A stretch of DNA of 64,000 bases from an uncultured Candidatus Binatia bacterium (lineage in GTDB: Bacteria; Desulfobacterota; Binatia; UBA9968; JAJDTQ01), in assembly GCA_965214905.1 (NCBI GenBank), contig OZ243984.1:2518003-2582002 (forward strand), read 5' to 3'. The notes under the pieces were generated by a model that did no database searches, was not told the DNA's origin, and saw only the letters and a program-made list of their open reading frames with translations. Of the stretch, positions 15,750 to 29,205 are shown one piece after another. How positions within the stretch are numbered: position 1 is the first letter of the stretch; every line of letters starts with the position of its first letter. Both the position numbers and the translations under genes were made by a program.

Positions 15750-16055
15750 GGGGTCAAATCTTGGAGAATTACTCTATCCTCATTCCTGGTTGAGCCAGTT
15801 CGCCTCACAATGACGCCAGCCGTTCGGGTGCGGCAAACGCAGCGGTCTGGATGAAACGATGCCGATCTATGCGCTTCTTGCCTATGCGAGGGCGGCGCAA
15901 ACCGACCTGACACCCGATCAAAAGCGCGCGGTTTTGGCGCTCGCAGCCGCGCTTAAAGCTACACGGAAGGAGATGAAATGGGCAGATTTGGCGATGGCTT
16001 GATCTAGTCCCACCTCCAGCTATGAATCGATGGATTGTCCTTCCTATCCTCCATT

Positions 16056-17240
16056 TCAGAGGGCATCGTCGAGGCCCTCTGAAAAATCGGGAGTGGCTAT
16101 GATAGGAGAGCCGCCAATAGCCGACTGTACGGTTGTCTCGTTTATGTCGGACACCTCATCCTCTGCCGCTTTGCGGACAATGTTGCCGGCGGTTGAGAGA
16201 AGAAACCTCGGATGTAACATCCGTTGGTCTCCAAGCAAAACGCCCATACCAGCTTCCGTGAAGGGCTTTATGGTCCCTGCGTCGCTTTCGTTTATGCGAT
16301 AGTAGTCCAAGTGGGCGACTATAATGTCGCGGGCTTGGGTTTCGCTAGGCAAGGGCAATTCCACCGAATTAGGAGAAGTCGGGTCCAGGCGGGCGAAGGA
16401 CGATAATCCGGCTTCCCCCCAGGCCTGCGCCAAACCGACAGAAGCCTGCTGGTGGGTTGTCAGGACACTGGAAAAGAAGTTGTAAGACGTGTTGGCGTAG
16501 CCCGGTCGGACAGTGCAAAGCCCGAACTGTTTCGCGAATTCAATGCGATGCCGGCGTGCCATTTTGTCAACCAGGTTCTCGATATCGTCGATAAACAGAT
16601 AGCCGCCGGCGAATCCTGCCGCTCGCAAGTAATAAACCATGTCGTTGAAGAGCAACGAACGAGAGTAGTCCAGGCCTTTGGTATCTCGAGGAACGTAGAA
16701 GGGCTCAAGGCTCTCGTCTCTTCGCAAAGAGCGAAGGTAGTTCTCAAATTCGCCTTTAGCCAACTTCGTAGCCACGAGGGACCTTACTCCATCTTGCTGA
16801 AGCCGGGCTGCGATCTCAGCGTCCAGAGCGTCAGGCAAGATGCCCTTATCTTGCAAAATAGCATCGTCGAGTAAATTCTCGCCGCTCTGACTGCCGTCGG
16901 GGTTGGTCAGAACGGCACTGGCCTGCTCACTGGTCGGTGCACCCAACCGCAAGGCTGCCCTTGAAGATTTCAAGATAGCGTTTTTGCAGATATCAACCAA
17001 GGCAGACCAAGCCAGTTGCTCCATATGTCTGCGATCGACTTGAGAAGGGAAGGCAACGTAAATGACCGCCGCGGAGAATCGACTATTGAACTCGGTAGCT
17101 CCCCAGTCCTGGTTGATTCTATGCTGAAAGTAGCGGAGCAGGGCGATCTTACCCATCCCCCTCCCGCTCTGCTGGTCGCCTTTAGACCAGAGATAGGCCA
17201 GCCTTACTCGATTAGCGAAGTCGTCGGGGCAAATGAGCAA
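16056..17240 (-). CDS. hypothetical protein with P-loop-like motifs (noncanonical Walker A SGRGMGKIALL; Walker B-like YLFIDDIENL)
   Basis: The gene is visibly lower in G+C than the surrounding genome. A 71-aa ORF at 17204-17419 lies in another frame immediately upstream and overlaps it. This could mean a frameshifted single gene of about 455 aa. Confidence 0.45.
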   Translation of the reverse strand: MLICPDDFANRVRLAYLWSKGDQQSGRGMGKIALLRYFQHRINQDWGATEFNSRFSAAVIYVAFPSQVDRRHMEQLAWSALVDICKNAILKSSRAALRLGAPTSEQASAVLTNPDGSQSGENLLDDAILQDKGILPDALDAEIAARLQQDGVRSLVATKLAKGEFENYLRSLRRDESLEPFYVPRDTKGLDYSRSLLFNDMVYYLRAAGFAGGYLFIDDIENLVDKMARRHRIEFAKQFGLCTVRPGYANTSYNFFSSVLTTHQQASVGLAQAWGEAGLSSFARLDPTSPNSVELPLPSETQARDIIVAHLDYYRINESDAGTIKPFTEAGMGVLLGDQRMLHPRFLLSTAGNIVRKAAEDEVSDINETTVQSAIGGSPIIATPDFSEGLDDAL

Positions 17241-17418
17241 TCGTTCGATTTTTCAATTTCAGCCGCTACCGGCGACTCGGCATAGATGGCCCCGTTCCGA
17301 CGGGGATCGTCGCTGTAAGGGTCAGCCACGGGAGTAGCCGGGAAGGGCAAATCCTTTAGCCCCAGCAGTTTGTAAGGTGACTCGGTAGTTGTAGGATTTT
17401 GGATTGGCAGATTGACCA

Positions 17419-18513
17419 CTATGCCCTCCTCAACAGGTTGTATATCTGGCTTGACCCTCGGTTGCGAACCAGGGGTTTGCGCCGGCTGGAGATGTTCTCG
17501 TAGTTCAACCCCATAGTCAACGGCGCCGGCTGTAGATCCAGCAACTGGTTGACCCCTTCATCGAACACGGCTTCGGGAATGCGGAGTTCCTCGCAGACCG
17601 AGTCACGCACCTCGGGCAAGTCATAGTATCCGCCTCGAGGTGATAGCTTCTCGAAGATCTGGTCAATGACTTCCCAAAGCCTTTGTTGAGTCGCCTTGTC
17701 CGTCATATCCGGTTCACAAAAGTATATCGTGAAAGGGGAGGCGGAAGACGGTTCAATCGATAACTGCACATACCAGTCGTGCGGTGGAGAGTTGTCCACG
17801 CAGGGCGAATAGCTCTTCAAAAAATCGCACCCCTCGATGGTAGTAGAGTCTCTCGCGATGTTCAAAAGACGAAGGCTTACCAACCGATCAACGATAGACC
17901 TGAAAAGCGGTACCCTGATGCGGACACCCGGCAAGGCCCAATTTATCACCTTTTCTTGCAAGGCGTCCTCTATCTTCTTTGCCACTCCTCCCTGGAAACT
18001 TTCCCGGATGGTGTTTGCGATAGAGTCTGCCTTTTCGGCAAAGGTCGGTTCGAGCAGCCTTCGGAGGTACCCCTCCTGCTCAAGCTTGCCAGTTTCCACG
18101 GTGGGACGCCAAATACACCCTATCTCAAGGTGTTTCTGTACCACAGCTCGAAGGTTGTCGTAGGTCTCGATGTGAACGCTGGCCATAACACGCCGCAATT
18201 CCATGTGCTTACGGCTGTCCACCAGGTACATCACCTCTTTGCCTCGATCCGTAAGTTCGTATGCTCTTTTGGCCGAATTCGCGAACCCGAAATGAACCAA
18301 CTCACGGCAGACCTTTTCGCCAACGGTCTCGAAAGTTCCCCTCGGTTCAGGCAGTAGAAGCCGAAGAGCCTTGTTGCTGACGTATTTTCGAACGGAACGG
18401 GAGATAGTCTCCTCCTGTTCTTCTCTACGCGCGGTCAAGGGAAGACAGCCTAAGACCCTCAACCCGATGTAATGGTAACTTATATCGGAGATGTTGTAAC
18501 TAGATATGTTCAT
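17419..18513 (-). CDS. hypothetical protein (364 aa), possible winged-helix region
   Basis: No recognisable catalytic motif was found. The start overlaps the upstream gene stop (18510-18513) and the G+C is low. The stop TAG at 17419-17421 is immediately followed by GGAGGG-GTG of the next ORF. Confidence 0.45.
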   Translation of the reverse strand: MNISSYNISDISYHYIGLRVLGCLPLTARREEQEETISRSVRKYVSNKALRLLLPEPRGTFETVGEKVCRELVHFGFANSAKRAYELTDRGKEVMYLVDSRKHMELRRVMASVHIETYDNLRAVVQKHLEIGCIWRPTVETGKLEQEGYLRRLLEPTFAEKADSIANTIRESFQGGVAKKIEDALQEKVINWALPGVRIRVPLFRSIVDRLVSLRLLNIARDSTTIEGCDFLKSYSPCVDNSPPHDWYVQLSIEPSSASPFTIYFCEPDMTDKATQQRLWEVIDQIFEKLSPRGGYYDLPEVRDSVCEELRIPEAVFDEGVNQLLDLQPAPLTMGLNYENISSRRKPLVRNRGSSQIYNLLRRA

Positions 18514-19292
18514 CTTCGGCCGCTTGCCTCTCTAAACTTGGCCAGTAGATCCGTGCAGTCTCCGTTAAGCTGTCGCAGTTGTCGGCTCAAGGCCAAGGTC
18601 TGCAGGCCGCCGACGGCTTTCAGGACTATGGTATCTTCCGAGTGAAATCCACACCGGTTGGTTAGCCAAGTTTCGTTCAAGGCACGGGATAGACTGTTTA
18701 GTCCTACACAGAATTCCTCGAATTGATCCGTGGTTTCAGTAAGCAAGGGGATGCCTTTGTGAATTTCGGCGTTCATTCTCCAGGCGCTATCAATAAGAAC
18801 CGGCAGAGGCCGCACACCCGGCGCAATCGGATGGACGCCCAACCCTAAACAAGCGGCAAGCCCGCTTTCCTCAAAGGAAGTACTGGACATAAACGCAGGC
18901 AACACCTCTCGCATCAGTAGGGTAGGGTTAAAGGCCAGGTAATCCAGAATCTTGGCGAAGAAAATGACTATCTCATTTTTCTCCGTGGGATTTGCGGGGC
19001 GGTTTTTGATCTCCACAACGGCGACCAGATCCGAGGTTTGCGCCACGATGTCAACTTCGTGATGAACGCCAGACGCCGTGTCCAGCCCCTCCCCAAGCCA
19101 CATTTCTCGCTCTTGGGAGATTGTCCAATCCGAGAGGTTTTTCACACAGCTTTCCCGAAAGCGCATCTCGAACCCTTGGTCGCCCGTCGGTTCCCGGTTG
19201 ATATGTTGCCATTCCGAGTTGACGAACAAGTAACAGCGCTTCAAAAACTTAAGTGCCGTATCGGGAAGATAACTATCTTTCTGGATGTCCAC
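18510..19292 (-). CDS. hypothetical protein with PD-(D/E)xK nuclease-like motif (…HHEVDIVAQ…VAVVEIKN…)
   Basis: The product is 260 aa. A D…ExK motif sits on predicted beta-strands. It is the first gene of a three-gene low-G+C cassette at the trailer end of the CRISPR array. Confidence 0.45.
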   Translation of the reverse strand: MDIQKDSYLPDTALKFLKRCYLFVNSEWQHINREPTGDQGFEMRFRESCVKNLSDWTISQEREMWLGEGLDTASGVHHEVDIVAQTSDLVAVVEIKNRPANPTEKNEIVIFFAKILDYLAFNPTLLMREVLPAFMSSTSFEESGLAACLGLGVHPIAPGVRPLPVLIDSAWRMNAEIHKGIPLLTETTDQFEEFCVGLNSLSRALNETWLTNRCGFHSEDTIVLKAVGGLQTLALSRQLRQLNGDCTDLLAKFREASGRR

Positions 19293-19768
19293 TTGGAGAT
19301 CCCCTCATTTTTGGATCAGATGACACCGAAGATTTCACGGTACCGGGGTTGCTCCATCAGCATGTGGGCAAACTTCTCGACCAGTGGACGGAGTCGGTGC
19401 TCGGGCCAGTTCGGAATAGGCTCGTAGAGCATCGACCCTTGGCGAAATAGCGAGTGCGTGCGGCTCTTGACCGTGCTCGCCTTCAGCCACCGGTCATGGC
19501 CCAAGCTCTCGCCCGCTGCACCGAGCAACGTTAGCAAGGCAATCGACAGCGCGCTGAGAAGCAGCATGCGGTCGCGGCGCTGCGGCGCGCAAATCGCTCT
19601 GGAACCGGCTTGCGTCACCCGGAAGGGCCTACACCGACAGGACGCGAAATGTTCAGAATACAAATCGACGTTATATTCAGTAAGTTACGCATCTATTCTA
19701 AAGAAAATTATGAGGGGACCCCTAATATCGGGCTGCTGATCTGAAATTCTACAGCCAATATAACAGAA

Positions 19769-20232
19769 GTTCAATGTAGTCGATGGGTAGCGGGGGAGAG
19801 CGCTCGCACCCGGGCCTGAAGCCTCGCGACGGCCCCGTTTCAATCCGCTCCCCCCGCCGAAGCGGGGGGAGACACGGCGCCGCAGGCGGAAACGACGCCG
19901 GCAGAGACGTTTCAATCCGCTCCCCCCGCCGAAGCGGGGGGAGACACGGAGGCGGAGTGGGAGCGGCAGTTCGGGGCCGGGTTTCAATCCGCTCCCCCCG
20001 CCGAAGCGGGGGGAGACATCGAGGGTGACGTGTCGCTCTCGATGGAAGATCTGTTTCAATCCGCTCCCCCCGCCGAAGCGGGGGGAGACTGTTTTGGGTG
20101 GGTGCGGTTGGATGCCGGAAGTAGTTTCAATCCGCTCCCCCCGCCGAAGCGGGGGGAGACCGGTGATTACGGCGGTTACCGGGAAGCCGGGGTCGGTTTC
20201 AATCCGCTCCCCCCGCCGAAGCGGGGGGAGAC
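19769..20232 (-). CRISPR. CRISPR array, 37-bp repeat (minus-strand read: gtctccccccgcttcggcggggggagcggattgaaac), 7 repeats (trailer-most degenerate), 6 spacers of 34-35 bp
   Basis: Perfect repeats lie at 19837, 19909, 19981, 20053, 20124 and 20196. A degenerate repeat lies at 19769-19801. The repeat contains a 10-bp palindromic stem and ends …ATTGAAAC in the cas-gene orientation, as is typical for type I-C. An AT-rich leader sits on the cas2 side. Confidence 0.95.
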
Positions 20233-20413
20233 CCCACCCATTATAACTGGCAATATATCAAAAGGTTAGGTGTCCGGATGCGCGATCCGAGGAGATTGGG
20301 CGTCAGAGGACTCCTGTTCGATTGTCATGGAATGCAGTGATGCACTGTTATACAAGTCTTTACGAGTCGCGCGAAAGCAATGGCGAAACTCCCGCGCTGC
20401 ACGTTCGCGCAAG
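20233..20413 (-). promoter_or_regulatory. CRISPR leader (AT-rich) between cas2 and first repeat
   Basis: The sequence reads cccacccattataactggcaatatatcaaaaggttagg…. It is AT-rich relative to the locus and sits adjacent to the newest repeat. Confidence 0.6.
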
Positions 20414-20704
20414 CTACAAGATCAGCGGATCGTTCAAATTCACGGGCTCTTTTACCCCGTAGTGTTCCGTACTGTCCTTGACGTCTTCATCCAGATGATA
20501 GACTCTCAGGGAGTCCTGCTCGGGGTCGATCTCGTCCAGCAGGCGATTTTTGAGCGTAGCCCATTCGGTTCTTCCGACTTGACATTCAAAAACCGACTTT
20601 TGCACCCGGACCCCATAATCCTCGCACGCCCTTGCCACACGTCGGAGGCGTTTCTGCCCTACCTTGTCAGCGGTGGAGACGTCATAGGCGATCAGAATGA
20701 ACAT
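20414..20704 (-). CDS. cas2: CRISPR-associated endoribonuclease Cas2
   Basis: The product reads MFILIAYDVSTADKVGQKRLRRVARACEDYGVRVQKSVFECQV…, a classic Cas2 N-terminus. It begins 4 nt after the cas1 stop. Confidence 0.9.
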   Translation of the reverse strand: MFILIAYDVSTADKVGQKRLRRVARACEDYGVRVQKSVFECQVGRTEWATLKNRLLDEIDPEQDSLRVYHLDEDVKDSTEHYGVKEPVNLNDPLIL

Positions 20705-20708
20705 GGCG

Positions 20709-21788
20709 TTACTTGGGAATGAACGGGATATAATCGGGAATGTCGCCACGAAGCGTTCGGGCCAACAGCTTGGCCTGGATGCTGAACACCTGCCCGAGGC
20801 GGATGTTCCCCTTGAACAGAGCGTGCTTTATTTCCGTTTGCTTGCGACGCTGCCAGGTTTGGATAACTTCTTTTCTGCCTCGGTCGGTAAATTCCACTAC
20901 GCCTCCTTCTCGCTCTCGAAAGTGCCTGGGCTCGATTTGACGCCGGTTGATCAGGGTCAACGCCAATCGCTCCGCCAGACAGGGCCGGAACTCTTCCATC
21001 AGATCGAGGGCGCAGGCGGGCCTGCCCGCCCGCGTCGTATGGAGCCAGCCGACGTATGGGTCCAGTCCGGCGGTTGTCAATGCGGCCAGGCAATCGTGGC
21101 GGACCAGTGCATAGATGAAAGACAGCAGGCAGTTGATCCTGTCTCGTGGCGGCCGCCGGGTGCGGGTGAAGAATCGGAAGTCATTCCGTTGTTGCTTGAG
21201 CATGTGTTCGAACACGGAGAAATATACTTTGGCTCCGATGCCCTCCAGTCCCCGGATCGGGTCCAGCGTCGCCCGAAGGCTGGCACTTTGGTCGACCGGT
21301 GGGGCGTTTCCAGGCATGGACTTGGCCGCAAGTTGACGAATCAGTCGGGCAAGCTCGACCGCGGCGCCAGCCAATGCCACATGGTCCGATTCCTCATCCG
21401 CTTCCCGGGCGGACCGTAAGAGGTTGGAGCGCGAGTTTTGCAGCTTCCCGGCGACGATTTGCCGCGCGATGCGGGCCGCCTCCACGGGACTGTCAGCCGC
21501 CGCGTACTGAGCACGGCGCAGCAAGTAGCGCGTGTCGCCACTTCCCATCACCTGAGCCAGCAGGTAGCCGTTCTCCGTGTGGTAGTGGATCGCAACCTGA
21601 TGCTCCCAGCACAGGGCCATGGCGGGGGGCGTCACGACGACCTGTCCGAAGGCGCAGACGCTTTCCAGATGGTGGATCGGCAGGGTCAGGCGGGTTTGCT
21701 TTTCGACCTCGACCCGGAGCGTCAGATGATCCCGATGCACCACGGTTCCCGGCGTGGTCAGGTAGAGAGTGTTTTGAACGACGGCCAT
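20709..21788 (-). CDS. cas1: CRISPR-associated endonuclease Cas1 (type I-C-like)
   Basis: The 359-aa product begins MAVVQNTLYLTTPGTVVHRDHLTLRVE… and contains conserved Cas1 acidic and His residues. Confidence 0.9.
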   Translation of the reverse strand: MAVVQNTLYLTTPGTVVHRDHLTLRVEVEKQTRLTLPIHHLESVCAFGQVVVTPPAMALCWEHQVAIHYHTENGYLLAQVMGSGDTRYLLRRAQYAAADSPVEAARIARQIVAGKLQNSRSNLLRSAREADEESDHVALAGAAVELARLIRQLAAKSMPGNAPPVDQSASLRATLDPIRGLEGIGAKVYFSVFEHMLKQQRNDFRFFTRTRRPPRDRINCLLSFIYALVRHDCLAALTTAGLDPYVGWLHTTRAGRPACALDLMEEFRPCLAERLALTLINRRQIEPRHFREREGGVVEFTDRGRKEVIQTWQRRKQTEIKHALFKGNIRLGQVFSIQAKLLARTLRGDIPDYIPFIPK

Positions 21789-21829
21789 GGGGTGTCACGG
21801 GTCCGTGCAGGCCGTAAAGCCGCTGATCG

Positions 21830-22480
21830 CTACTCCCCGGTTTCGAACACTCCCCGAGAGAGCCGCGCCAGCATGGGTGGAGCGCTGGTGATCTCTGGAA
21901 GGCAGTGGTCGAAAAGTGAACATTCCGAACATTGGGGCTTGTGGATCGCTTTAGGGACCGTTTCCTGTTCGATGAGCCGGTGCACGGCTTCAATGGCCTG
22001 CTCGGTGAGGCACCGCAGTTCTTGGGTAAATTCCACCTCTCGGCGGCGCTTGCTCTTGGCGTGGAAGATGGCGCCTCTCGAAACCTCGATCCCGAACATT
22101 TCTTCCAGGCACAGAGCCTGGGCGCAAAGCTGGGCGTCGTCGTTGTCGAACTTGCGGCGTTTGCCTTTCTTGAACTCAACCGGGGTCAGCGAGCCATCGG
22201 AACGACGTTCGACAATGTCGCACTTGCCGCTGAGCCCGAGTCGGTCCGACCACACGGGCAAGGCACGCAACAGGGTCACACCCCTGACGGTTTCATAGCC
22301 GGAAGTATCGGTCTGTTCGTGAACGCTATCGCCGATAACCGTGTGCTCGTTGGCATCTCGCCATCCTTCGACTGCCTTCAACGCTGCCCTGCGATGGCAG
22401 TAGAGGAAATCGTTGATGAGCGAGAGGGGAAACATCTCCCGCTCGACAGTGTCTGAAGAGCCGTCGGGGCAACGCTGCAT
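21830..22480 (-). CDS. cas4: CRISPR-associated exonuclease Cas4 (RecB-like nuclease with C-terminal Cys cluster)
   Basis: The product reads …FLYCHRRAALKAVEGW… and carries a C-terminal CSECSLFDHC Fe-S Cys motif. An alternative start exists at 22435. Confidence 0.85.
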   Translation of the reverse strand: MQRCPDGSSDTVEREMFPLSLINDFLYCHRRAALKAVEGWRDANEHTVIGDSVHEQTDTSGYETVRGVTLLRALPVWSDRLGLSGKCDIVERRSDGSLTPVEFKKGKRRKFDNDDAQLCAQALCLEEMFGIEVSRGAIFHAKSKRRREVEFTQELRCLTEQAIEAVHRLIEQETVPKAIHKPQCSECSLFDHCLPEITSAPPMLARLSRGVFETGE

Positions 22481-22481
22481 T

Positions 22482-22886
22482 CTATTTTGCGGTTTTACCG
22501 GCGTCGAACCGCATTCTTCTGCCGGCCTTTAACAGAACAGCCGGCAATCGCTTCAGTTCCTCACTGCGTGGGTCCACCTCGAACCCACCGGATTCCAGGG
22601 CGGTAACGCCAAGTAACGGCTCCACCCCCTCATCGCCGTACACGACGGTCCCGCCAACGACTTCTCCTTGAAACTCGATCTCGGCGATGGTGATGTCCAA
22701 GGCGACGGACTTGCCATCCGCAAGCACGTACTCTCGGCGGCCTCTCGGTTCAAGCCCGATTGCTTCGAGGCAGGCTCTCGGTACAAGCGAGTCGAACGCA
22801 CCGGTACCAACTAGAAACTTGCTGGTCCAGCTCCGGCTCGGGTTCGCGGGATTGCGGATCGTGACATCAACGTAAGTCGCGCCCAT
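22482..22886 (-). CDS. hypothetical small protein, retropepsin-like (clan AA aspartyl-protease-like) fold candidate, translationally coupled to cas4
   Basis: The product is 134 aa: FLVGTGAFDSLVPRACLEAIGL…ADGKSV…LLGVTALESGGFEVDP. This resembles retropepsin-like domains, but with GTGA in place of DTGA. Its stop (22482-22484) lies 1 nt from the cas4 ATG (22478-22480). Confidence 0.45.
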   Translation of the reverse strand: MGATYVDVTIRNPANPSRSWTSKFLVGTGAFDSLVPRACLEAIGLEPRGRREYVLADGKSVALDITIAEIEFQGEVVGGTVVYGDEGVEPLLGVTALESGGFEVDPRSEELKRLPAVLLKAGRRMRFDAGKTAK

Positions 22887-23042
22887 TCTGGTTCCCTTCG
22901 GGTTGGTTACGGCTTCACCGAACCCCGTTGCGGTTGCAATCGCATTCTACGCCGACCTGAAATGACCGGAGAAAGGGTTGCTGAAACAGAACGAGGCAGC
23001 ATCGGGATCAGCGATACTTGGCCTTGAAATTCCAGATCAGCG

Positions 23043-25391
23043 TTACAGAATGATCCCTCCGTCACGCTGCGACTCCAGCAAGGGGAGCAGGCCCTTCCAG
23101 TAACCAAGAAACTCGTCGTAGCAGTTTGGTTGAATGCCTACCAACTCACTGTCACGACTCAGTGGTCGGGTGACGGGCAGATCGTTCTGTCTGGTTTTCC
23201 AGACCTGCACGCTATGACGCATGATTTCTGCGGGCGACGGAAACTCCTTGGGATCCCTCGCTTGAAATCGCTCTATCAAGTCCTGACTGACAAGCACCGT
23301 GAGTGTATCCTCGGCGATGATCCGGCAGCGGTTGGCAACTTCGGGATAGTCCCCATCTTCTTCGGCTTCAATGATATGCTGAGCCCCGATCTCGGTCCCG
23401 CCAAAACCCGAAATGACTTCTCGACGCAAGGCTTCGGTGCAGTGTTGCGGACTAAGAAGTTCGCCGTGTTCGATAAACATCTTGTCAAGCACCTTTCGCG
23501 AACTTTTGAACCCGGGGTGCAGGTTCAGAAAACCGGATTCGTCGTGTGCGAAATCCCATACCTCCGCTTGAGTGTATTCGCCGTTTCGATTGACCCGTCC
23601 GGCGACCTGGAGAAGGCTGGTCAGGCTGCAGCGTTCACGAAAGGCGGTACGAAAGGAAAAGTCCACCCCGGCTTCTATGCAACTCGTGGCTACCAGGATC
23701 CAGTCCCTGTCGCCTCTATTGCCGAGACGCTGCCTGATTCGGGAAACAATTGCCGATCGATGCGCAGGACAGATTGCCGTAGAGAGATGCTCTACTCGTG
23801 AGTCTGTCTCGCCCGTCCATTCACGACCTGGATAGAATCGACTCCACAGAAATTTGGCCAGGACAGCGGCAGATTGCACCGTGTTCAGAATTATCAACCG
23901 AGGCCCTGGTTTGTCCTTCTCAAGAACAAAGTCCGCCAACTTTTCGAGGGTCAACCGATCGTCGTGCCTCTTGAGAGATACCCGGTGGCCTTCGGAAGCG
24001 TCGGCCTGATCCTTCGATTCCCCAACGACGAGTGGAGGTACGGAGGGCCGTCGCTCAACCGGAACGAAGTCCTCCAGTTCCCAAAAACGTGGCAGCGAAC
24101 CACTGGCGAGGACGACGTGGCAGTTCCAGTCCTCGCATAGTTCTTGCAGCCAACGCCAGTGCTGAGGCCACAGCGGCGCCGGCACGGCTGCGTGTGCTTC
24201 GTCTACGAAGACTGCTGAACCCGGTACTTGATGGAGCTTGCGGAGCGCAGCGGTCCGATTCGCGGCGAGCGTCTCGAAAAACTGCACCGCCGTGGTCACG
24301 ACGATTGGCGCTTCCCAACGCTGCGCCAACTGCCGCAACTCTCTCCATTGTTCACCGCTGAACTCGACTCTGTGATGGTGAGCGGCAACCACCGATTCAG
24401 GGTCTTCACCGGGCAACACCAATGCCTTGCGATAAACGTCAACAGATTGATCGATGATGTTGGTGAACGGCAGGACCACGAACACCCGGCGCAAGCCGCG
24501 TTTATCAGCGACCCGCAGGAGATGTGCCATTACGGCAGAGGTCTTGCCGGTTCCGACCGGACTTTCACAGGCGACCATCCGTTCGCCGTTCTCAAGTTCC
24601 CGGTCGCGACAGGCTCGGTAGACGCTCTGTCGCAACCGAAGCCGTGTCGTCTCCGCTGGGGACGTGCTGGATTGGTTGCGTCCGAGGTTTTCTACGTAGC
24701 GGTCCAAGGCTTGTAAACGTTCGGCAGCTCTCAGTAGGGCGCCGTCCAACTCCCGCTCTTCCCGATAATGTTGCGCGGTGTCGCTATGATCTCCGTCCAC
24801 AAGACAGGATAGGGCTAGGCGACGGACCAAGCCGGTAAAGCAAGGTCGGGGATCGCCGGCGGGAGGGGGTTTGACGGGTTTGACGACATCGGCATGTTGA
24901 TGGAGATAGCCGTCAAGCAGTTTGTCCGTTCTCTCCCAGGACACTGCGTCCATGCCGTTCAGCTCTTTTCCGTCACGCAAGAAGAGGGATCGTTCTGTTC
25001 CTTCGTCATCAAATTTTGCTTTTGCTCTCTCCTTAGGCAGTGACGGCAAGCCAATGTGATGGCTGAAGCAGCATATCGCCGCTTCACCCAGCTTCCGCTT
25101 CAGCAGGTGAGCGGTGCCTGCCTCGACATGATTGAAACCTTCCTCATTGGGGCGGTTGCGGTACAGAATGTCCTGGAAGATTTCGTCCAACTTGCCGAGA
25201 TCGTGATAAGTGGCGGCCAATTCCACCACCGCCTGAAAAAATTCCCGCTCTGAATATGTCACCGCCGCTTCGCGAGCAAACTTGGCTGCAAGGCGGCGTA
25301 CGTTGGCTACATGTTCACGGTAGCTCTGCCCCGGTGAGCCTCGTCGGGCACTATGGGCCAGAGCGGAATGGTTGGAGGACGACATGCTCAT
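23043..25391 (-). CDS. cas3: CRISPR-associated helicase/nuclease Cas3 (HD domain + SF2 helicase)
   Basis: The 782-aa product has an N-terminal HD motif (…TYHDLGKLDE…) and a VFVDEAH DExH box. Its start overlaps the cas7 stop (TAATG). Confidence 0.9.
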   Translation of the reverse strand: MSMSSSNHSALAHSARRGSPGQSYREHVANVRRLAAKFAREAAVTYSEREFFQAVVELAATYHDLGKLDEIFQDILYRNRPNEEGFNHVEAGTAHLLKRKLGEAAICCFSHHIGLPSLPKERAKAKFDDEGTERSLFLRDGKELNGMDAVSWERTDKLLDGYLHQHADVVKPVKPPPAGDPRPCFTGLVRRLALSCLVDGDHSDTAQHYREERELDGALLRAAERLQALDRYVENLGRNQSSTSPAETTRLRLRQSVYRACRDRELENGERMVACESPVGTGKTSAVMAHLLRVADKRGLRRVFVVLPFTNIIDQSVDVYRKALVLPGEDPESVVAAHHHRVEFSGEQWRELRQLAQRWEAPIVVTTAVQFFETLAANRTAALRKLHQVPGSAVFVDEAHAAVPAPLWPQHWRWLQELCEDWNCHVVLASGSLPRFWELEDFVPVERRPSVPPLVVGESKDQADASEGHRVSLKRHDDRLTLEKLADFVLEKDKPGPRLIILNTVQSAAVLAKFLWSRFYPGREWTGETDSRVEHLSTAICPAHRSAIVSRIRQRLGNRGDRDWILVATSCIEAGVDFSFRTAFRERCSLTSLLQVAGRVNRNGEYTQAEVWDFAHDESGFLNLHPGFKSSRKVLDKMFIEHGELLSPQHCTEALRREVISGFGGTEIGAQHIIEAEEDGDYPEVANRCRIIAEDTLTVLVSQDLIERFQARDPKEFPSPAEIMRHSVQVWKTRQNDLPVTRPLSRDSELVGIQPNCYDEFLGYWKGLLPLLESQRDGGIIL

Positions 25392-26320
25392 TAGCCATCG
25401 AGCGCATAGTCTTGGTACTTGCCGCAGTTCGAGAATGTTCTACTGGACCCGAATCGGACAGGGTTGTCCTTGATTGCGTCCCATGTCGGAATTTCGTAGT
25501 CGTCCAGCGATTCGGAGGGCTTGTCCATCGCCGTCTTCTTGCGAGGCGTCAGGGCATCCAACAGGGCGAAATCGGACAACGAACCGCGTCGCTCATTGTG
25601 GGTGAAGACGTGAGCGTGAATGATCTCAACCATTGTTCGGACAACGGAGCGGGTGTGCGGATAAGCCAGAGGCAAAAGCTCAAGCATCAGCTTAACGTCG
25701 GTCTCCGTGCATCCCGTCTTGTGGGCCAAACCGGGATTGACAAAGAAAGGAACCGTATAAACTCCATGTTTGACGACGCGAAACGCCATGGGCGCCATGC
25801 CGCGGTCCTTGCCTGTTTCAACGCCTGATTTGCTCGTCCATGTTGAATACTCGATGTCTATCGGAGCCACGGAAACGCCGACACCAAAGTGTGCCACCCC
25901 GGTACGGATTGTGTCTCCACTGCCTTCTTCGAGGAAGGTGTTCCCAAACAGGCGTCCGTCCCAATAGGCTTCCTTGAACCCTTGAGAAAGTCGATGGTTA
26001 CCTTCCTTTTCCATGAGCTTGCGAATTTCTTCGCGGTTTCGCCCTCGCTGCTCGAGAATCTTAAATTCGTCGTCCGCCTGAATCTCCAACTTTTCTTTGA
26101 CTTCCTGCCACACCACGCCCTCCTTTTCCAGAACAAGATCGCGGAGCTTCCGTTTGAAAGACACCGGCGAGATCTCGCCCTTACCGTCCGGGCGCTGGCG
26201 AGGGGAGCCTTCGCGCTCGGGGTCGCCGTTGGGGTTGGATTTCCGTACCTCGATCACAAGCAGGCCAGTGATGCGAGGGACTTGCGTTTCGGTCCTGGTA
26301 CCGTGTTCCTGTGTGGACAT
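25391..26320 (-). CDS. cas7: Cas7 (Csd2/Cas7c family, type I-C)
   Basis: The product reads MSTQEHGTRTETQVPRITGLLVIEVRKSNPNGDPEREGSPRQ…PVSFKRKLRDLV, matching the Csd2 N-terminal signature NPNGDP…. Confidence 0.8.
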   Translation of the reverse strand: MSTQEHGTRTETQVPRITGLLVIEVRKSNPNGDPEREGSPRQRPDGKGEISPVSFKRKLRDLVLEKEGVVWQEVKEKLEIQADDEFKILEQRGRNREEIRKLMEKEGNHRLSQGFKEAYWDGRLFGNTFLEEGSGDTIRTGVAHFGVGVSVAPIDIEYSTWTSKSGVETGKDRGMAPMAFRVVKHGVYTVPFFVNPGLAHKTGCTETDVKLMLELLPLAYPHTRSVVRTMVEIIHAHVFTHNERRGSLSDFALLDALTPRKKTAMDKPSESLDDYEIPTWDAIKDNPVRFGSSRTFSNCGKYQDYALDG

Positions 26321-26324
26321 AGGG

Positions 26325-28514
26325 TTAGGCTTCCGTTTCGGTTTTCGGATGATCGGCGAGGTAGCCGAGAAGGAGTTGAGCCTTGTGAACGTCTTCCATG
26401 CGATCCGGCAGTTCGGCAACGTCGATGTGGCGTTCACGCTCGCCCATCTGACGAACAAACCAGTGAATCAATCCTGCGTCCTTACCCGAGTAGGTGTCTG
26501 CCCAGCCTTTGTACGGCCGGACGCGCTCGGCGAGGCGAGCAAGCGCCGACAGCGGATTGTCGAGGGCAAGGTTGAACAGTGAGTTTCCAAGCAACTCGGA
26601 TGGCGCTTCGACGTCGCCATTTTTTCGCTTCTGATCCGGGGTACGAACCCACTTGCAGTACTGCAGATGCAGGCCGTCGGCCAAGGCTAGCAGTCGCCCT
26701 ATCTGATAGGTCGAGTCTTGCATAAACTGATCCTTTGAATGTCCGAGTTGTTGAAGGAGAATGCCGATAAGCGAGATCGTCTTCCTGCACTGCCAACGAA
26801 CGTTGTCGCTCAGGTCTTTCCAACGACAACTGGTCTTGACACTTCCAAGGCCGACAAGAACCGGAGATGTCCGATGCAAAAGGAGCGAGAAACACAGGCA
26901 TGTCTTGTTCCGTGATATCGGCCCATCGGAAAAGAACAGGTCGTAGGCATCCGATGTGGTGACAGCACGTTGAAAGGATGAGGCGAAGCCGTTTTTGGCA
27001 TCTGATCTCCAGACACGATTAATGACTGACGTCAGGTCGAGCGGATGAGGCACAAAATGAGACTTCCAGTCGGCCTTCATTTCTTTCTTGTTAGGAAACC
27101 AGATGGAAACAGGCGGTGTGTTGGCGGCTCCAGTCTTCCATTCCTGAGCCGCGCGAATGATGTCCTGCACACGGAACTGGCGATGCAGGCTGACTTGCTT
27201 GCGTCCCTTGTCGATTTCACATAGAGTCAGAAGTCGAGCCGTCAAGTTCGGTTGTTCCTGTAATTTGCCCTCAAGGGCGTTAAGCACGGACCGTGTTCGT
27301 TCGGCAAAATCCGCATCTCCAAATCTTTGTGCCTCGCCACCGAATAGTTCGGCCAACTGTTCCTGGAAGTCTGGCGCTTGCTCCAGGTAGGCGATCAGCA
27401 GGTCGTTCCGGTTTCTGCCTGGAATTCCTCGCCATGTCAAACCTTCCTCTCTCTTCTCGTCGCCGAGGTAAAGCAGTGCGTTGTTCATTCTCTGTACGAC
27501 CGGTGTAGATGCCGGAAACTGCATGGATCCCTTCAGTCCGTAGCGACGAAGTGCCTTGATCTCGTCCGTGTTTACAGAGAAAAGCTTCACGTCACCGAGG
27601 TTTGCGACTTTGGGGGTCGGGTATTTGTCTTGCAAGAGACCTTGGTTTCCAAATGCGTCCAATTCACCCTGGTCGGATTGAGGTTTGACTGTATCGTGTC
27701 TGAGCATGAACTCGTTTATTGCCTTGCTGGTGTCCGGGTGAGCGACGGCTTTATGATTGAGATCGATCTTGGCCACATCGAAATATACGGGTTGGTTGGT
27801 GTTCTTAGCGTTCTTATCTTGCTTGGTCTTTTCCGACCAGTAGGCGTCCGAGCCCAGCTTGGCCATGCGCTTTCTCCAGTCGAGCACACCGAACAAGCCT
27901 TGTTGTATCAGGCAGAGATCCTCGCGATCAGCGGTTGCTGACGTGTGGAGAAAGGTGTCGGTCAGATTCCGGCTGAACCGATTCAGATCGAGTTCGGTGC
28001 GCCCCGCTACGTCCAGCAGTCGTGTAAAGTTGCTCAGTCCCGGTGTTGCCGTGCCAAGCATTTTTTGAAGCTCGTGAACCAACTTGACGACCGAGCGCCT
28101 GAACTGGCTGCACTGGGAGCTCGTGAACGGACGCGGCTGGGATAACTCGACCATCTTCGCAAGGGCATTGCAAATCTGCCTGGTCGGTGGGTTCTTTTCC
28201 TTCCACAAACCACAAAGCCGTTCCAAAACGGGGGTTAATCGGGTAGATGTGGATGTCGAATCAAGATGGCGAAGCGGTGTTGGGATGTTGAGTCCGGGAA
28301 AGCTGGAGCCCGATGAGCCGTGCTCCACGCGAAATAGACGGGCCGCCTTGTCACCTGGAACGAACTCCACTTCGGCTGGTCCGGCATCGTCGTTCAGTCG
28401 CACGATCAACAATTTCCTGGTTTTTGCCATCGGCTTGATACGCGGGTGTCGCGATGGCGGAACGATGCCCACTCGATCCATAGCCTGCGAGACGAGATAG
28501 AGCTCGTTAAGCAT
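26325..28514 (-). CDS. cas8c: Cas8c (Csd1-like large subunit)
   Basis: The product is 729 aa. It sits between cas5 and cas7 with the overlapping and coupled junctions typical of Cascade operons. Confidence 0.7.
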   Translation of the reverse strand: MLNELYLVSQAMDRVGIVPPSRHPRIKPMAKTRKLLIVRLNDDAGPAEVEFVPGDKAARLFRVEHGSSGSSFPGLNIPTPLRHLDSTSTSTRLTPVLERLCGLWKEKNPPTRQICNALAKMVELSQPRPFTSSQCSQFRRSVVKLVHELQKMLGTATPGLSNFTRLLDVAGRTELDLNRFSRNLTDTFLHTSATADREDLCLIQQGLFGVLDWRKRMAKLGSDAYWSEKTKQDKNAKNTNQPVYFDVAKIDLNHKAVAHPDTSKAINEFMLRHDTVKPQSDQGELDAFGNQGLLQDKYPTPKVANLGDVKLFSVNTDEIKALRRYGLKGSMQFPASTPVVQRMNNALLYLGDEKREEGLTWRGIPGRNRNDLLIAYLEQAPDFQEQLAELFGGEAQRFGDADFAERTRSVLNALEGKLQEQPNLTARLLTLCEIDKGRKQVSLHRQFRVQDIIRAAQEWKTGAANTPPVSIWFPNKKEMKADWKSHFVPHPLDLTSVINRVWRSDAKNGFASSFQRAVTTSDAYDLFFSDGPISRNKTCLCFSLLLHRTSPVLVGLGSVKTSCRWKDLSDNVRWQCRKTISLIGILLQQLGHSKDQFMQDSTYQIGRLLALADGLHLQYCKWVRTPDQKRKNGDVEAPSELLGNSLFNLALDNPLSALARLAERVRPYKGWADTYSGKDAGLIHWFVRQMGERERHIDVAELPDRMEDVHKAQLLLGYLADHPKTETEA

Positions 28515-29157
28515 AGAACAGCATTCCCTTATGGACTTTGATCCCCTGGCTGAAGCTTGGCTTTACGCGACCTTGCTGCGGGCGGTCGAATACCATGCGC
28601 AACATCGATGGCAGCTCATGACTCTCGGTCTCGCACACCCGTGTTCCCGAGCGAAACGGTCCTACGTAATCCGGGACGAATTCCTTCCATCCAAGGCAGG
28701 GCGTACAAAACCACCGGCCGTTCCCCAATCGACGGTTGAAGACATCCTGAAAGGCATGGGGCGAACATTGACCGTCCGGTGCCTTTGCTCGTTCGCCGTT
28801 TGGCCCGCGATTCCAGTCCACCTCGGCGTAGAGCCGATAGCAAACGTTCACCAGGACCATAGCGAATAACTGGAACGATGCGCGTTTTCTTCTTGCGTCA
28901 GATGCACGCAAGGGTCCTCCATAGTTGGTAACGTAATGATGAAACTGGACCGGCCGACAAATTTCTACCTTGACCGGCCTCACGTTGACGGATTTCCAAC
29001 GAAGGACGGACTCGAAGATGCCTTTCGCGGCGCTGAAGGTGGGCGCTACATAGGAAACCGGGGAGGAACCGGTATCCGGCCGGGTCCACATCGCGGTTGG
29101 GCCGGAGATTTCGAATTGGACTGCGTAGGATTTCATCGTTTCTCCATATGCATGCAT
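28507..29157 (-). CDS. cas5: Cas5 (Cas5c/Cas5d-like, type I-C)
   Basis: The 216-aa product reads …FEISGPTAMWTRPDTGSSPVSYVAPTFSAAKGIFESVLRWKSV…, matching the Cas5d N-terminal pattern. No cas6 is present in the locus. Confidence 0.75.
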   Translation of the reverse strand: MHAYGETMKSYAVQFEISGPTAMWTRPDTGSSPVSYVAPTFSAAKGIFESVLRWKSVNVRPVKVEICRPVQFHHYVTNYGGPLRASDARRKRASFQLFAMVLVNVCYRLYAEVDWNRGPNGERAKAPDGQCSPHAFQDVFNRRLGNGRWFCTPCLGWKEFVPDYVGPFRSGTRVCETESHELPSMLRMVFDRPQQGRVKPSFSQGIKVHKGMLFYA

Positions 29158-29205
29158 TTTTACCAGTCCGGTTGGAAACGCTCAACGCGCCTCTCATGAT
29201 GGCGT

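What the first reader, a model, noticed from the sequence alone, without database searches (positions are those of the whole stretch)
16056..19292. Uncharacterised three-gene low-G+C cassette at the trailer end of the CRISPR array (P-loop-like protein, unknown 364-aa protein, PD-(D/E)xK-motif protein)
Three co-directional, overlapping or abutting genes with clearly foreign base composition lie between the host XDH gene and the CRISPR trailer. One product carries a D…ExK restriction-endonuclease-like motif (HHEVDIV…VAVVEIKN). Another carries ORC/STAND-like spacing of a degenerate Walker A (SGRGMGKIALL) and a Walker B (YLFIDDIENL). None matches a defence-system family I can recognise (not Gabija, Septu, PARIS, Hachiman, Wadjet, Lamassu or Shedu by architecture). 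Nuclease plus NTPase plus unknown partner next to CRISPR-Cas is the typical signature of an undescribed defence or cas-accessory module.
Basis: partly seen in the sequence, partly recalled or inferred. Interest (0 to 1): 0.75.

Follow-up and report, generated by a model that had tools for sequence, protein, structure and literature searches.

The report
Uncharacterised nuclease–winged-helix–ATPase gene trio
Three tightly linked genes next to a CRISPR array form a horizontally spreading cassette (DNA-cutting enzyme, DNA-binding protein, ATP-driven motor) seen in at least nine bacterial lineages and one archaeal class; it matches no catalogued system, probably attacks foreign DNA, is not tied to CRISPR, and its motor gene is broken here.

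Summary
Three co-directional, overlapping minus-strand genes lie at 16056-19292 and have low G+C.

- A (260 aa) is a NERD/YraN-like PD-(D/E)xK nuclease.
- B (364 aa) is a tandem (about three) winged-helix protein. Its nearest multi-domain structural match is the FokI recognition domain.

In this window C carries a 1-nt deletion (about 17248) and a Walker A Thr-to-Ile change (17145-17147). Sister-strain contigs that are 95-97% identical have neither lesion.

The A-B-C order is kept in 55 of the 60 loci fetched from other species' genomes (57 close relatives and 3 distant ones), including an archaeal one. Flanks differ between loci and there is no fourth conserved gene. No cas gene or CRISPR array lies nearby in any other locus. 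G+C is below the flanks in 48 of 49 loci. Cassettes 83-94% identical sit between unrelated genes.

None of the three proteins reaches a curated threshold or a significant E-value in Pfam, NCBIfam, PADLOC, PHROGs or PDB sequences.

Best reading (about 0.55): a stand-alone ATP-dependent DNA-targeting nuclease system, probably anti-mobile-element and without a methyltransferase. The closest prior art is a computationally predicted kind of operon: Orc/Cdc6 ATPase, restriction-type nuclease and triple winged helix. Linkage to CRISPR is incidental.

The parts
18510..19292 (-). Gene A: 260-aa NERD/YraN-like PD-(D/E)xK endonuclease, followed by a C-terminal region of about 130 aa whose fold was not determined
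   Evidence: ORF. 277 homologues, none with a Pfam domain. Weak NERD in 9 of 30 members, UPF0102 in 5 of 30, Hjc in 1. YraN E=8e-4. E63, H78, E79, D81, E94 and K96 are invariant.
19005..19061 (-). Catalytic core of A: H78-E79-x-D81 ... E94-x-K96
   Evidence: Read from the sequence. The columns are invariant in 30 sequences.
17419..18513 (-). Gene B: 364-aa tandem (about three) winged-helix protein, the predicted DNA-recognition or adaptor subunit
16056..17419 (-). Gene C: ORC/Cdc6-clade AAA+ ATPase, 454 aa when intact. Here it is split into a 71-aa ORF (17419..17204) and a 394-aa ORF (17240..16056)
17247..17250 (-). Site of the 1-nt (T) deletion that frameshifts gene C
   Evidence: Alignment with sister contigs L065 and L066: GAAAAATTCGAG there, GAAAAA-TCGAAC in the window. 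The intact translation reads ...EIEKFERLLICPDDF....
17145..17165 (-). Walker A of C: GRGMGKI. The Ile codon ATC (17147..17145) replaces the Thr codon ACC
   Evidence: GKT is invariant in 33 homologues. T92I is the only deviation at 133 invariant columns. The sister contigs have ACC.
16578..16601 (-). Walker B of C: YLFIDDIE
   Evidence: Y274, L275, F276, D278, D279, I280 and E281 are invariant.
19316..19663 (-). IS4-family transposase C-terminal fragment between the CRISPR trailer and gene A. It ends 24 nt before the start of A. It is context, not part of the cassette.
   Evidence: NCBIfam transpos_IS4_2, E=1.4e-8, covering profile positions 259-322 of 340.
19836..20232 (-). CRISPR array: 6 repeats of 37 nt (GTCTCCCCCCGCTTCGGCGGGGGGAGCGGATTGAAAC) with 71-72-nt spacing, next to the type I-C cas operon at 20414-29157. 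It is context, not part of the cassette.
   Evidence: Cas5 and Cas7 match I-C structures.

Best explanation
The three genes are one autonomous, horizontally exchanged operon. It most likely encodes a three-subunit, ATP-dependent DNA-targeting nuclease that acts against foreign DNA, that is, a restriction-like or defence system without a methyltransferase.

Proposed mechanism:
1. B, the tandem winged-helix protein, recognises a DNA feature.
2. [quoted passage not shown]
3. This licenses A, the NERD-type PD-(D/E)xK endonuclease, to cut.

The cassette carries no modification enzyme. Self/non-self discrimination would therefore have to be Type IV-like (reading a modification or a structure found only on invaders) or be triggered by infection.

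What is shown: the gene order, the coupling of the genes, the domain identities, the conservation of the catalytic residues, the horizontal mobility and the absence of linkage to CRISPR.

What is inferred: complex formation, the order of events, the target and the defence role.

In this window the ATPase is inactivated by a frameshift and a Walker A T92I change, so the locus is probably non-functional. Its position beside the CRISPR array is incidental.
For: Obligate unit:
- A-B-C order is kept in 55 of 60 other loci, and the B-C and A-B junctions are 0-44 nt.
- The order is kept even in distant versions, where C is 32-37% identical: Bathyarchaeia L062 and Chloroflexi L063.
- There is no conserved fourth gene.
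- Start and stop codons overlap, consistent with translational coupling.

Domains:
- A is a PD-(D/E)xK nuclease with an invariant triad.
- B is a confident tandem winged-helix model with FokI, MukF, JetA, Cdt1 and Mrr_N resemblance.
- C is an ORC/Cdc6-like AAA+ ATPase with invariant Walker A and B motifs.

Horizontal, accessory lifestyle:
- It occurs in about 60 of 185,579 species genomes, across Chloroflexota, Binatia, Entotheonella, Verrucomicrobiota, Planctomycetota, Latescibacterota, Acidobacteriota, Pseudomonadota, Thermodesulfobacteriota and Bathyarchaeia.
- Trio G+C is lower than the flanks in 48 of 49 loci, median -8.8 points.
- Cassettes 83-94% identical at the nucleotide level sit between totally unrelated genes. 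Homology runs from about -40 nt to about +20 nt around the coding block.
- Decay is recurrent: 5 of the 57 close loci besides the window.
- Two divergent copies occur in one genome (L046 and L057).

Precedent: operons of Orc/Cdc6 ATPase, restriction-type nuclease and DndG-like triple winged helix, and the SspB (triple winged helix) / SspC (Orc/Cdc6) pair, are described as counter-invader systems (PMC10853773).

Window lesions.
Against: - There is no experimental evidence of any kind.
- The defence-island signal is weak. Of 107 nearest-neighbour ORFs, most are metabolic (SDR, luciferase-like, amidase, enolase). Few are mobile or defence-like: DDE transposase 4, PIN 3, Uma2 2, Eco57I 2, Snf2-type helicase 2.
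- The proteins are unusually conserved for a defence system (median 50%, 53% and 61% identity to the window copy across phyla). The presumed recognition subunit B does not evolve faster than the nuclease.
- No PADLOC model is hit.
- A's C-terminal half was not modelled.
- The frameshift could be a long-read assembly error. The T92I substitution is harder to explain that way.
Confidence: 0.55

Rival explanations
1. The trio is a self-mobilising or selfish element. It would use its own nuclease (TnsA-like role), AAA+ ATPase (TnsC/MuB/TniB-like target selector) and winged-helix protein to move as a precise 3.3-kb unit, or it would persist by post-segregational killing.
For: - Near-identical cassettes lie in unrelated sites, with homology ending within about 40 nt and about 20 nt of the coding block.
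- G+C is always foreign to the host.
- No separate mobility genes accompany the cassette.
Against: - No terminal inverted or direct repeats above the shuffled expectation.
- No conserved end motifs.
- No DDE, serine or tyrosine recombinase.
- The copies within one genome are divergent, not identical (L046 and L057).
- Absent from plasmid, phage and viral collections.
- tRNA adjacency in only 2 of 53 loci.
Confidence: 0.1
2. The trio is an accessory DNA repair, replication-restart or chromosome-maintenance module. An ORC/RFC/RuvB-like loader would work with a structure-specific Hjc/NERD-like nuclease and a kleisin- or Cdt1-like winged-helix adaptor on the host's own DNA.
For: - High conservation and strong purifying selection on all three proteins.
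- Mostly metabolic, non-defence neighbours.
- Structural matches of B to MukF, JetA, Cdt1 and TubR, and of C to Cdc6, DnaA, RFC and RuvBL.
- One Hjc hit for A.
Against: - Very rare and patchy: about 0.03% of species.
- Compositionally foreign nearly everywhere.
- Frequently pseudogenised.
- Moved between unrelated sites.
- Matches to single winged-helix and AAA+ domains are generic.
Confidence: 0.15
3. The trio is a CRISPR-Cas accessory module that cooperates functionally with the adjacent type I-C system.
For: It lies about 540 nt beyond the last repeat of the array. It shares the low-G+C island with the cas operon. The same arrangement is seen in sister-strain contig L065.
Against: - No cas gene and no CRISPR array lies within 10 kb of the trio in any of the other loci.
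- An IS4 fragment separates it from the array.
- L065 is the same population, not an independent case.
Confidence: 0.03

Closest known systems
Orc/Cdc6 + REase(-ASCH) + DndG-like triple-winged-helix operons, predicted computationally as counter-invader systems (PMC10853773, NAR 2024)
   Same: [quoted passage not shown] They occur in mobile gene neighbourhoods.
   Different: In that description the nuclease is fused to an ASCH modified-DNA reader. No ASCH or other reader domain is detectable in A by sequence, and its C-terminal half looks helical by eye. I could not establish whether the families are the same: no accession overlapped in the one supplementary file held as text. Neither system has been tested experimentally.
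SspB-SspC of the SspABCD phosphorothioate system
   Same: It pairs a triple-winged-helix DNA-binding subunit with a Cdc6/Orc-clade AAA+ ATPase, as described in PMC10853773.
   Different: There is no SspA (cysteine desulfurase) or SspD (PAPS-reductase-like) gene here. B and C hit no PADLOC, Pfam or NCBIfam model at the thresholds used, and I take those libraries to include SspB/DUF4007 and SspC models. The partner here is a nuclease, not a modification enzyme.
FokI (type IIS restriction enzyme) and Mrr (type IV)
   Same: A winged-helix recognition module drives a nuclease. FokI's three-winged-helix recognition domain is the best multi-domain structural match of B. The Mrr_N winged helix is the only recurrent Pfam hit of B.
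   Different: In FokI and Mrr, recognition and cleavage are in one polypeptide and need no ATPase. The FokI cleavage domain and Mrr_cat are different PD-(D/E)xK families from NERD. The similarity of B to FokI is not statistically significant (E=0.033, TM 0.28).
McrBC-type (type IV) restriction
   Same: The same logic: an AAA+ NTPase motor plus a separate PD-(D/E)xK nuclease, no methyltransferase, and a DNA-reader domain.
   Different: McrB is a GTP-specific AAA+ protein of a different clade. There is no sequence match to McrB or McrC models.
Tn7-family TnsA/TnsC; BREX BrxC

Membership tests
PD-(D/E)xK nucleases, NERD (PF08378) / YraN (UPF0102) type, for protein A | Catalytic motif E...(P)D...(D/E)xK on the conserved core | tested here: met
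   E63, D81, E94 and K96 (plus H78 and E79) are invariant in 30 sequences and present in the window copy.
PD-(D/E)xK nucleases, NERD (PF08378) / YraN (UPF0102) type, for protein A | Score above the curated family threshold | tested here: not met
   Best NERD E=0.017 (9 of 30 members) and best UPF0102 E=0.023. YraN scores 19.7 bits against a cutoff of 124. The superfamily is supported; membership of a named family is not.
ORC/Cdc6-clade AAA+ ATPases (PF24389, PF13191), for protein C | Canonical Walker A GxxxxGK[ST] and Walker B hhhhD[DE] | tested here: met
   GRGxGKT and YLF(I/V)DDIE are invariant in 33 homologues. In the window copy itself Walker A is GKI, and the gene is frameshifted.
ORC/Cdc6-clade AAA+ ATPases (PF24389, PF13191), for protein C | Profile or fold match specific to the initiator clade | tested here: inconclusive
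ORC/Cdc6-clade AAA+ ATPases (PF24389, PF13191), for protein C | C-terminal winged-helix domain after the AAA+ lid | tested here: inconclusive
   The model shows only helices at residues 389-435 and a disordered tail, all at low confidence. Winged helices may be supplied in trans by B.
FokI/DndG/SspB-type triple-winged-helix modules, for protein B | Three consecutive winged-helix units forming one compact module | tested here: met
FokI/DndG/SspB-type triple-winged-helix modules, for protein B | Sequence membership of DUF4007/SspB or DptG/DndG families | tested here: not met
   No such hit in Pfam (30 members at E up to 5), NCBIfam or PADLOC.
Orc/Cdc6 + REase-ASCH + triple-winged-helix operons (PMC10853773) | Co-operonic Orc/Cdc6 ATPase, restriction-type nuclease and triple-winged-helix protein | tested here: met
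Orc/Cdc6 + REase-ASCH + triple-winged-helix operons (PMC10853773) | ASCH domain fused to the nuclease | tested here: not met
   No ASCH hit in 30 A-family members at E up to 5.
SspABCD phosphorothioation system | SspA cysteine desulfurase and SspD ATP-pyrophosphatase next to SspB and SspC | tested here: not met
The conserved unit has only three genes and no recurrent neighbour.
Tn7-like / Tn5053-like transposons | DDE transposase (TnsB/TniA) and terminal inverted repeats with target-site duplication | tested here: not met
   No transposase in the unit. No inverted or direct repeat above shuffled controls in 48 loci. No conserved end motif.
CRISPR-Cas accessory genes | Recurrent genomic linkage to cas genes or arrays | tested here: not met
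   No tblastn hit with seven Cas proteins and no CRISPR array in the other loci.
Catalogued defence systems (PADLOC-DB v2.0) | Significant match to any system's protein models | tested here: not met
   No hit for the window proteins. For 10 members of each family there were only two isolated weak hits: PglW at 0.0046 and LmuC at 0.014. DefenseFinder and later catalogues were not available.

The most novel reading that the evidence does not exclude
The trio is a new kind of autonomous mobile element with no canonical transposase or recombinase. Its nuclease, AAA+ ATPase and winged-helix protein would themselves move the 3.3-kb cassette, which would explain why near-identical copies sit between unrelated genes with homology ending about 40 nt before and about 20 nt after the coding block. 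A less radical novel reading, that it is a new, experimentally unexplored family of ATP-dependent defence nuclease without a methyltransferase, is my best explanation (about 0.55).
Probability: 0.08. Interest if true: 0.9.

Novelty: new variant of a known kind. Interest (0 to 1): 0.55.

Why it matters
If the defence reading is right, this is an uncatalogued three-component immune system. It pairs an ORC/Cdc6-type ATPase with a FokI-like recognition module and a NERD nuclease.

It spreads among uncultured Chloroflexota, Binatia, Entotheonella, Planctomycetota, Verrucomicrobiota, Acidobacteriota and even Bathyarchaeia. These lineages are barely represented in defence catalogues built from cultured bacteria.

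It would give an experimental handle on the computationally predicted class of Orc/Cdc6, nuclease and triple-winged-helix systems. It would also help show how ORC-like ATPases license nucleases without a methyltransferase.

The cassette's sharply delimited mobility is unexplained and worth a look in its own right.

For annotating this window, the practical message is more modest. The cassette is not a CRISPR accessory, and its ATPase is probably dead here.

Tried and rejected
1. Pfam, NCBIfam and PADLOC on the window proteins, then on 18-30 members of each family, plus PHROGs. Only sub-threshold hits.
2. Profile searches of PDB sequences for A, B and C. Nothing meaningful.
3. Exhaustive profile search with A against 1.84 billion representatives. 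It gave a small family (143 hits), and the distant members also lack Pfam domains, so it provided no bridge to a named family.
4. My first frameshift junction, at the C-run near 17228, was wrong. Alignment to homologues and to the sister contigs moved it to the T at about 17248.
5. Structure of C. The model was of low confidence (65.8), probably because the alignment is shallow and too similar, so the fold matches only support 'initiator-clade AAA+' loosely.
6. AFDB Foldseek for B was unavailable. PDB Foldseek gave no significant hit.
7. Transposon hypothesis. No terminal repeats, no end motifs and no tRNA targeting.
8. CRISPR linkage. None found. The one CRISPR-like k-mer signal, in L055, is a 68-nt tandem repeat.
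9. Phage, plasmid and viral origin. No relatives in INPHARED, PLSDB or IMG/VR.
10. Looking up the window genome's own record through P0001 gave nothing, so the host organism is unidentified.
11. Literature searches found no description of this family. The supplement of PMC10853773 that is held as text has no overlapping identifiers.
Full report
**Observation**

A and B overlap by 4 nt. The B stop overlaps a GTG at 17419.

The trio has 53.4% G+C, against 66-67% in the host flanks. The neighbouring array and cas operon are also low, at 57%.

The array has six 37-nt repeats (19836-20232). Its Cas5 and Cas7 match type I-C (Dvulg/Csd2) structures. An IS4 transposase fragment (19316-19663) lies between the array trailer and gene A.

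**The third gene is damaged here**

The GTG at 17419 opens a 71-aa ORF that ends at 17204, in a different frame from the 394-aa ORF. Joining the two gives a 454-aa protein that aligns end to end with 451-456-aa homologues.

Two short-read contigs from a sister population, L065 and L066, are 95-97% identical. L065, which reaches far enough upstream, shows the same CRISPR / IS4 / trio arrangement. They read GAAAAATTCGAG where the window reads GAAAAA-TCGAAC. In them the ORF continues uninterrupted. The window has therefore lost one T at about 17248.

The 'degenerate' Walker A is GRGMGKT in every homologue and in the sister contigs. The window has ACC changed to ATC (Thr92Ile, 17147..17145). This is the only deviation at 133 columns that are invariant in 33 homologues.

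A and B are intact, with one and three conservative deviations respectively. Two independent lesions in the ATPase suggest real inactivation. The indel alone could be an assembly error.

**What the proteins are**

- **A.** There is no family-level hit. NERD (9 of 30 members), UPF0102/YraN (5 of 30) and Hjc (1) recur weakly. E63, H78, E79, D81, E94 and K96 are invariant. A is a PD-(D/E)xK nuclease. Its family is tiny: 143 representatives among 1.84 billion.

No significant hit was found in PADLOC, NCBIfam or PHROGs. PDB sequence searches also found nothing.

**Conservation as a unit**

A scan of one genome per species returned 60 loci: 57 close relatives and 3 distant ones. A-B-C in the same order and orientation, nearly abutting, is found in 55 of them. 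In four of the other five the contig ends inside or just beside the cassette. In L028 gene A is deleted.

The hosts are mostly Dehalococcoidia. Others are further Chloroflexota, Binatia, Entotheonella, Verrucomicrobiota, Planctomycetota, Latescibacterota, Acidobacteriota, Pseudomonadota and Thermodesulfobacteriota.

Two distant versions, in which C is 32-37% identical, keep the order: a Bathyarchaeia contig and Chloroflexi 54-19. There is no recurrent fourth gene.

**Lifestyle**

- Trio G+C is lower than that of its flanks in 48 of 49 loci, with a median difference of -8.8 points.
- Cassette pairs that are 83-94% identical at the nucleotide level have no homologous flanking ORFs: L033/L034, L020/L021, L037/L054, L010/L011 and L012/L056. 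Homology starts about 40 nt before A and ends about 20 nt after C.
- There are no terminal inverted or direct repeats above chance, no conserved end motif, and tRNA adjacency in only 2 of 53 loci.
- There are no relatives in phage, plasmid or viral collections.
- Five other loci carry degraded copies, with frameshifts, insertions or deletions. Three of the five hit C.
- One genome has two divergent copies (L046 and L057).

**Neighbourhood**

No cas gene or CRISPR array lies within 10 kb of the trio in any other locus. The nearest neighbours are mostly metabolic genes. A minority are transposases, PIN, Uma2, Eco57I-type methylases and Snf2 helicases.

The CRISPR adjacency in this window is therefore incidental, and guilt by association gives only weak support for defence.

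**Interpretation**

Three features fit an ATP-dependent DNA-targeting complex best: an obligate pairing of a nuclease, a multi-winged-helix DNA binder and an ORC-like ATPase; conserved catalytic sites in both enzymes; and a rare, patchy, compositionally foreign, frequently lost cassette.

In that model B recognises DNA, C assembles on it or remodels it, and A cuts. With no modification gene, discrimination would be Type IV-like or triggered by infection.

The domain assignments and the genomic behaviour are shown. The complex, its target and the defence role are inferred. I give this reading 0.55.

The rivals are:
- a repair or maintenance module (0.15), favoured by the high conservation and the metabolic neighbours;
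- a self-mobilising or selfish element (0.10), favoured by the sharp boundaries but lacking ends and a recombinase;
- a CRISPR accessory (0.03), effectively refuted.

**Comparison with what is known**

The nearest description is computational. PMC10853773 notes mobile operons that combine an Orc/Cdc6 ATPase, a restriction-type nuclease fused to ASCH, and a DndG-like triple-winged-helix protein. It relates the triple-winged-helix module to FokI and SspB, with SspC being a Cdc6/Orc ATPase.

The present trio shares that architecture. It differs in three ways: no ASCH is detectable; B and C do not match any Pfam, NCBIfam or PADLOC model, which I take to include those for SspB/DUF4007, DptG and SspC; and none of the sulfur-modification genes is present.

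It works like McrBC or Mrr-type restriction in its logic, but it is not a member of those families. I file it as a new variant of a known, purely predicted kind.

**Verdict**

This is a real, conserved and so far uncharacterised three-gene system of moderate interest (0.55). The copy in this window is probably inactive, and the link to CRISPR-Cas is coincidental.

Noticed in passing
window 15750-29200: The whole block is a low-G+C island (53-57%) inside a genome of 66-70% G+C. The block comprises the trio, the IS4 fragment, the CRISPR array and the type I-C cas operon. Its edges lie at about 15800 and about 29200, so the cas operon also looks horizontally acquired.
   Followed up: partly
window 20414-29157 (minus strand): The gene order of the type I-C operon is cas5-cas8c-cas7-cas3-(134-aa ORF)-cas4-cas1-cas2-array. 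From my own knowledge, cas3 usually comes first in I-C operons; here it sits after cas7. The Cas8c candidate has no match among PDB sequences.
   Followed up: partly
window 22482-22886 (minus strand): A 134-aa ORF is wedged between cas3 and cas4. It has a weak match to the ApRick retropepsin-like aspartic protease (E=0.03). Where the catalytic D-T/S-G-A motif would be expected, the sequence reads V-G-T-G-A, so the protein may be inactive.
   Followed up: partly
window 19316-19663 (minus strand): This is a C-terminal fragment of an IS4-family transposase, ending 24 nt before the start of gene A. It has replaced whatever native upstream region the cassette had. A promoter-like site (TTGAAC-17-TAGAAT, 19774..19746) lies just upstream, but such sites are no more frequent here than in shuffled sequence.
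   Followed up: partly
L015, L016, L049, L061, L028: These loci hold degraded copies of the trio in other species. L015 has a frameshift in C near residues 80-91. L016 has a 2.4-kb insertion in B. L049 has an A-B fusion deletion plus a 1.1-kb insertion in C. L061 has C broken at residue 250. L028 has lost A and has a truncated B. Some of the frameshifts may be long-read assembly errors.
   Followed up: partly
L033:8085-11370 vs L034:8086-11370, and similar pairs: Cassettes 83-94% identical at the nucleotide level lie in unrelated contexts. Homology starts about 40 nt upstream of A and ends about 20 nt after C. In L033 a TCATTG hexamer occurs at both junctions but not in L034, so this is probably chance. 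How such a bare unit moves is unexplained.
   Followed up: partly
L046 and L057 (both on OY282456.1): One Dehalococcoidia genome carries two divergent copies of the trio at different sites. No nucleotide alignment between them of at least 75% identity over at least 1,500 nt was found.
   Followed up: no
L055:3172-3376: Three tandem copies of a 68-nt repeat, with no spacers, lie about 4.7 kb upstream of the trio. This is not a CRISPR array.
   Followed up: yes
record titles of L007, L008, L015, L029 and others: Several host MAG names point to marine-sponge symbionts: Candidatus Entotheonella, 'SB0662_bin_28', 'APA_bin_2' and SAR202. That reading comes from my own knowledge of these naming schemes and was not checked. 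If it is right, the cassette may circulate within sponge microbiomes, which would help explain the high identity across phyla.
   Followed up: no
The drop in G+C begins here.
   Followed up: no
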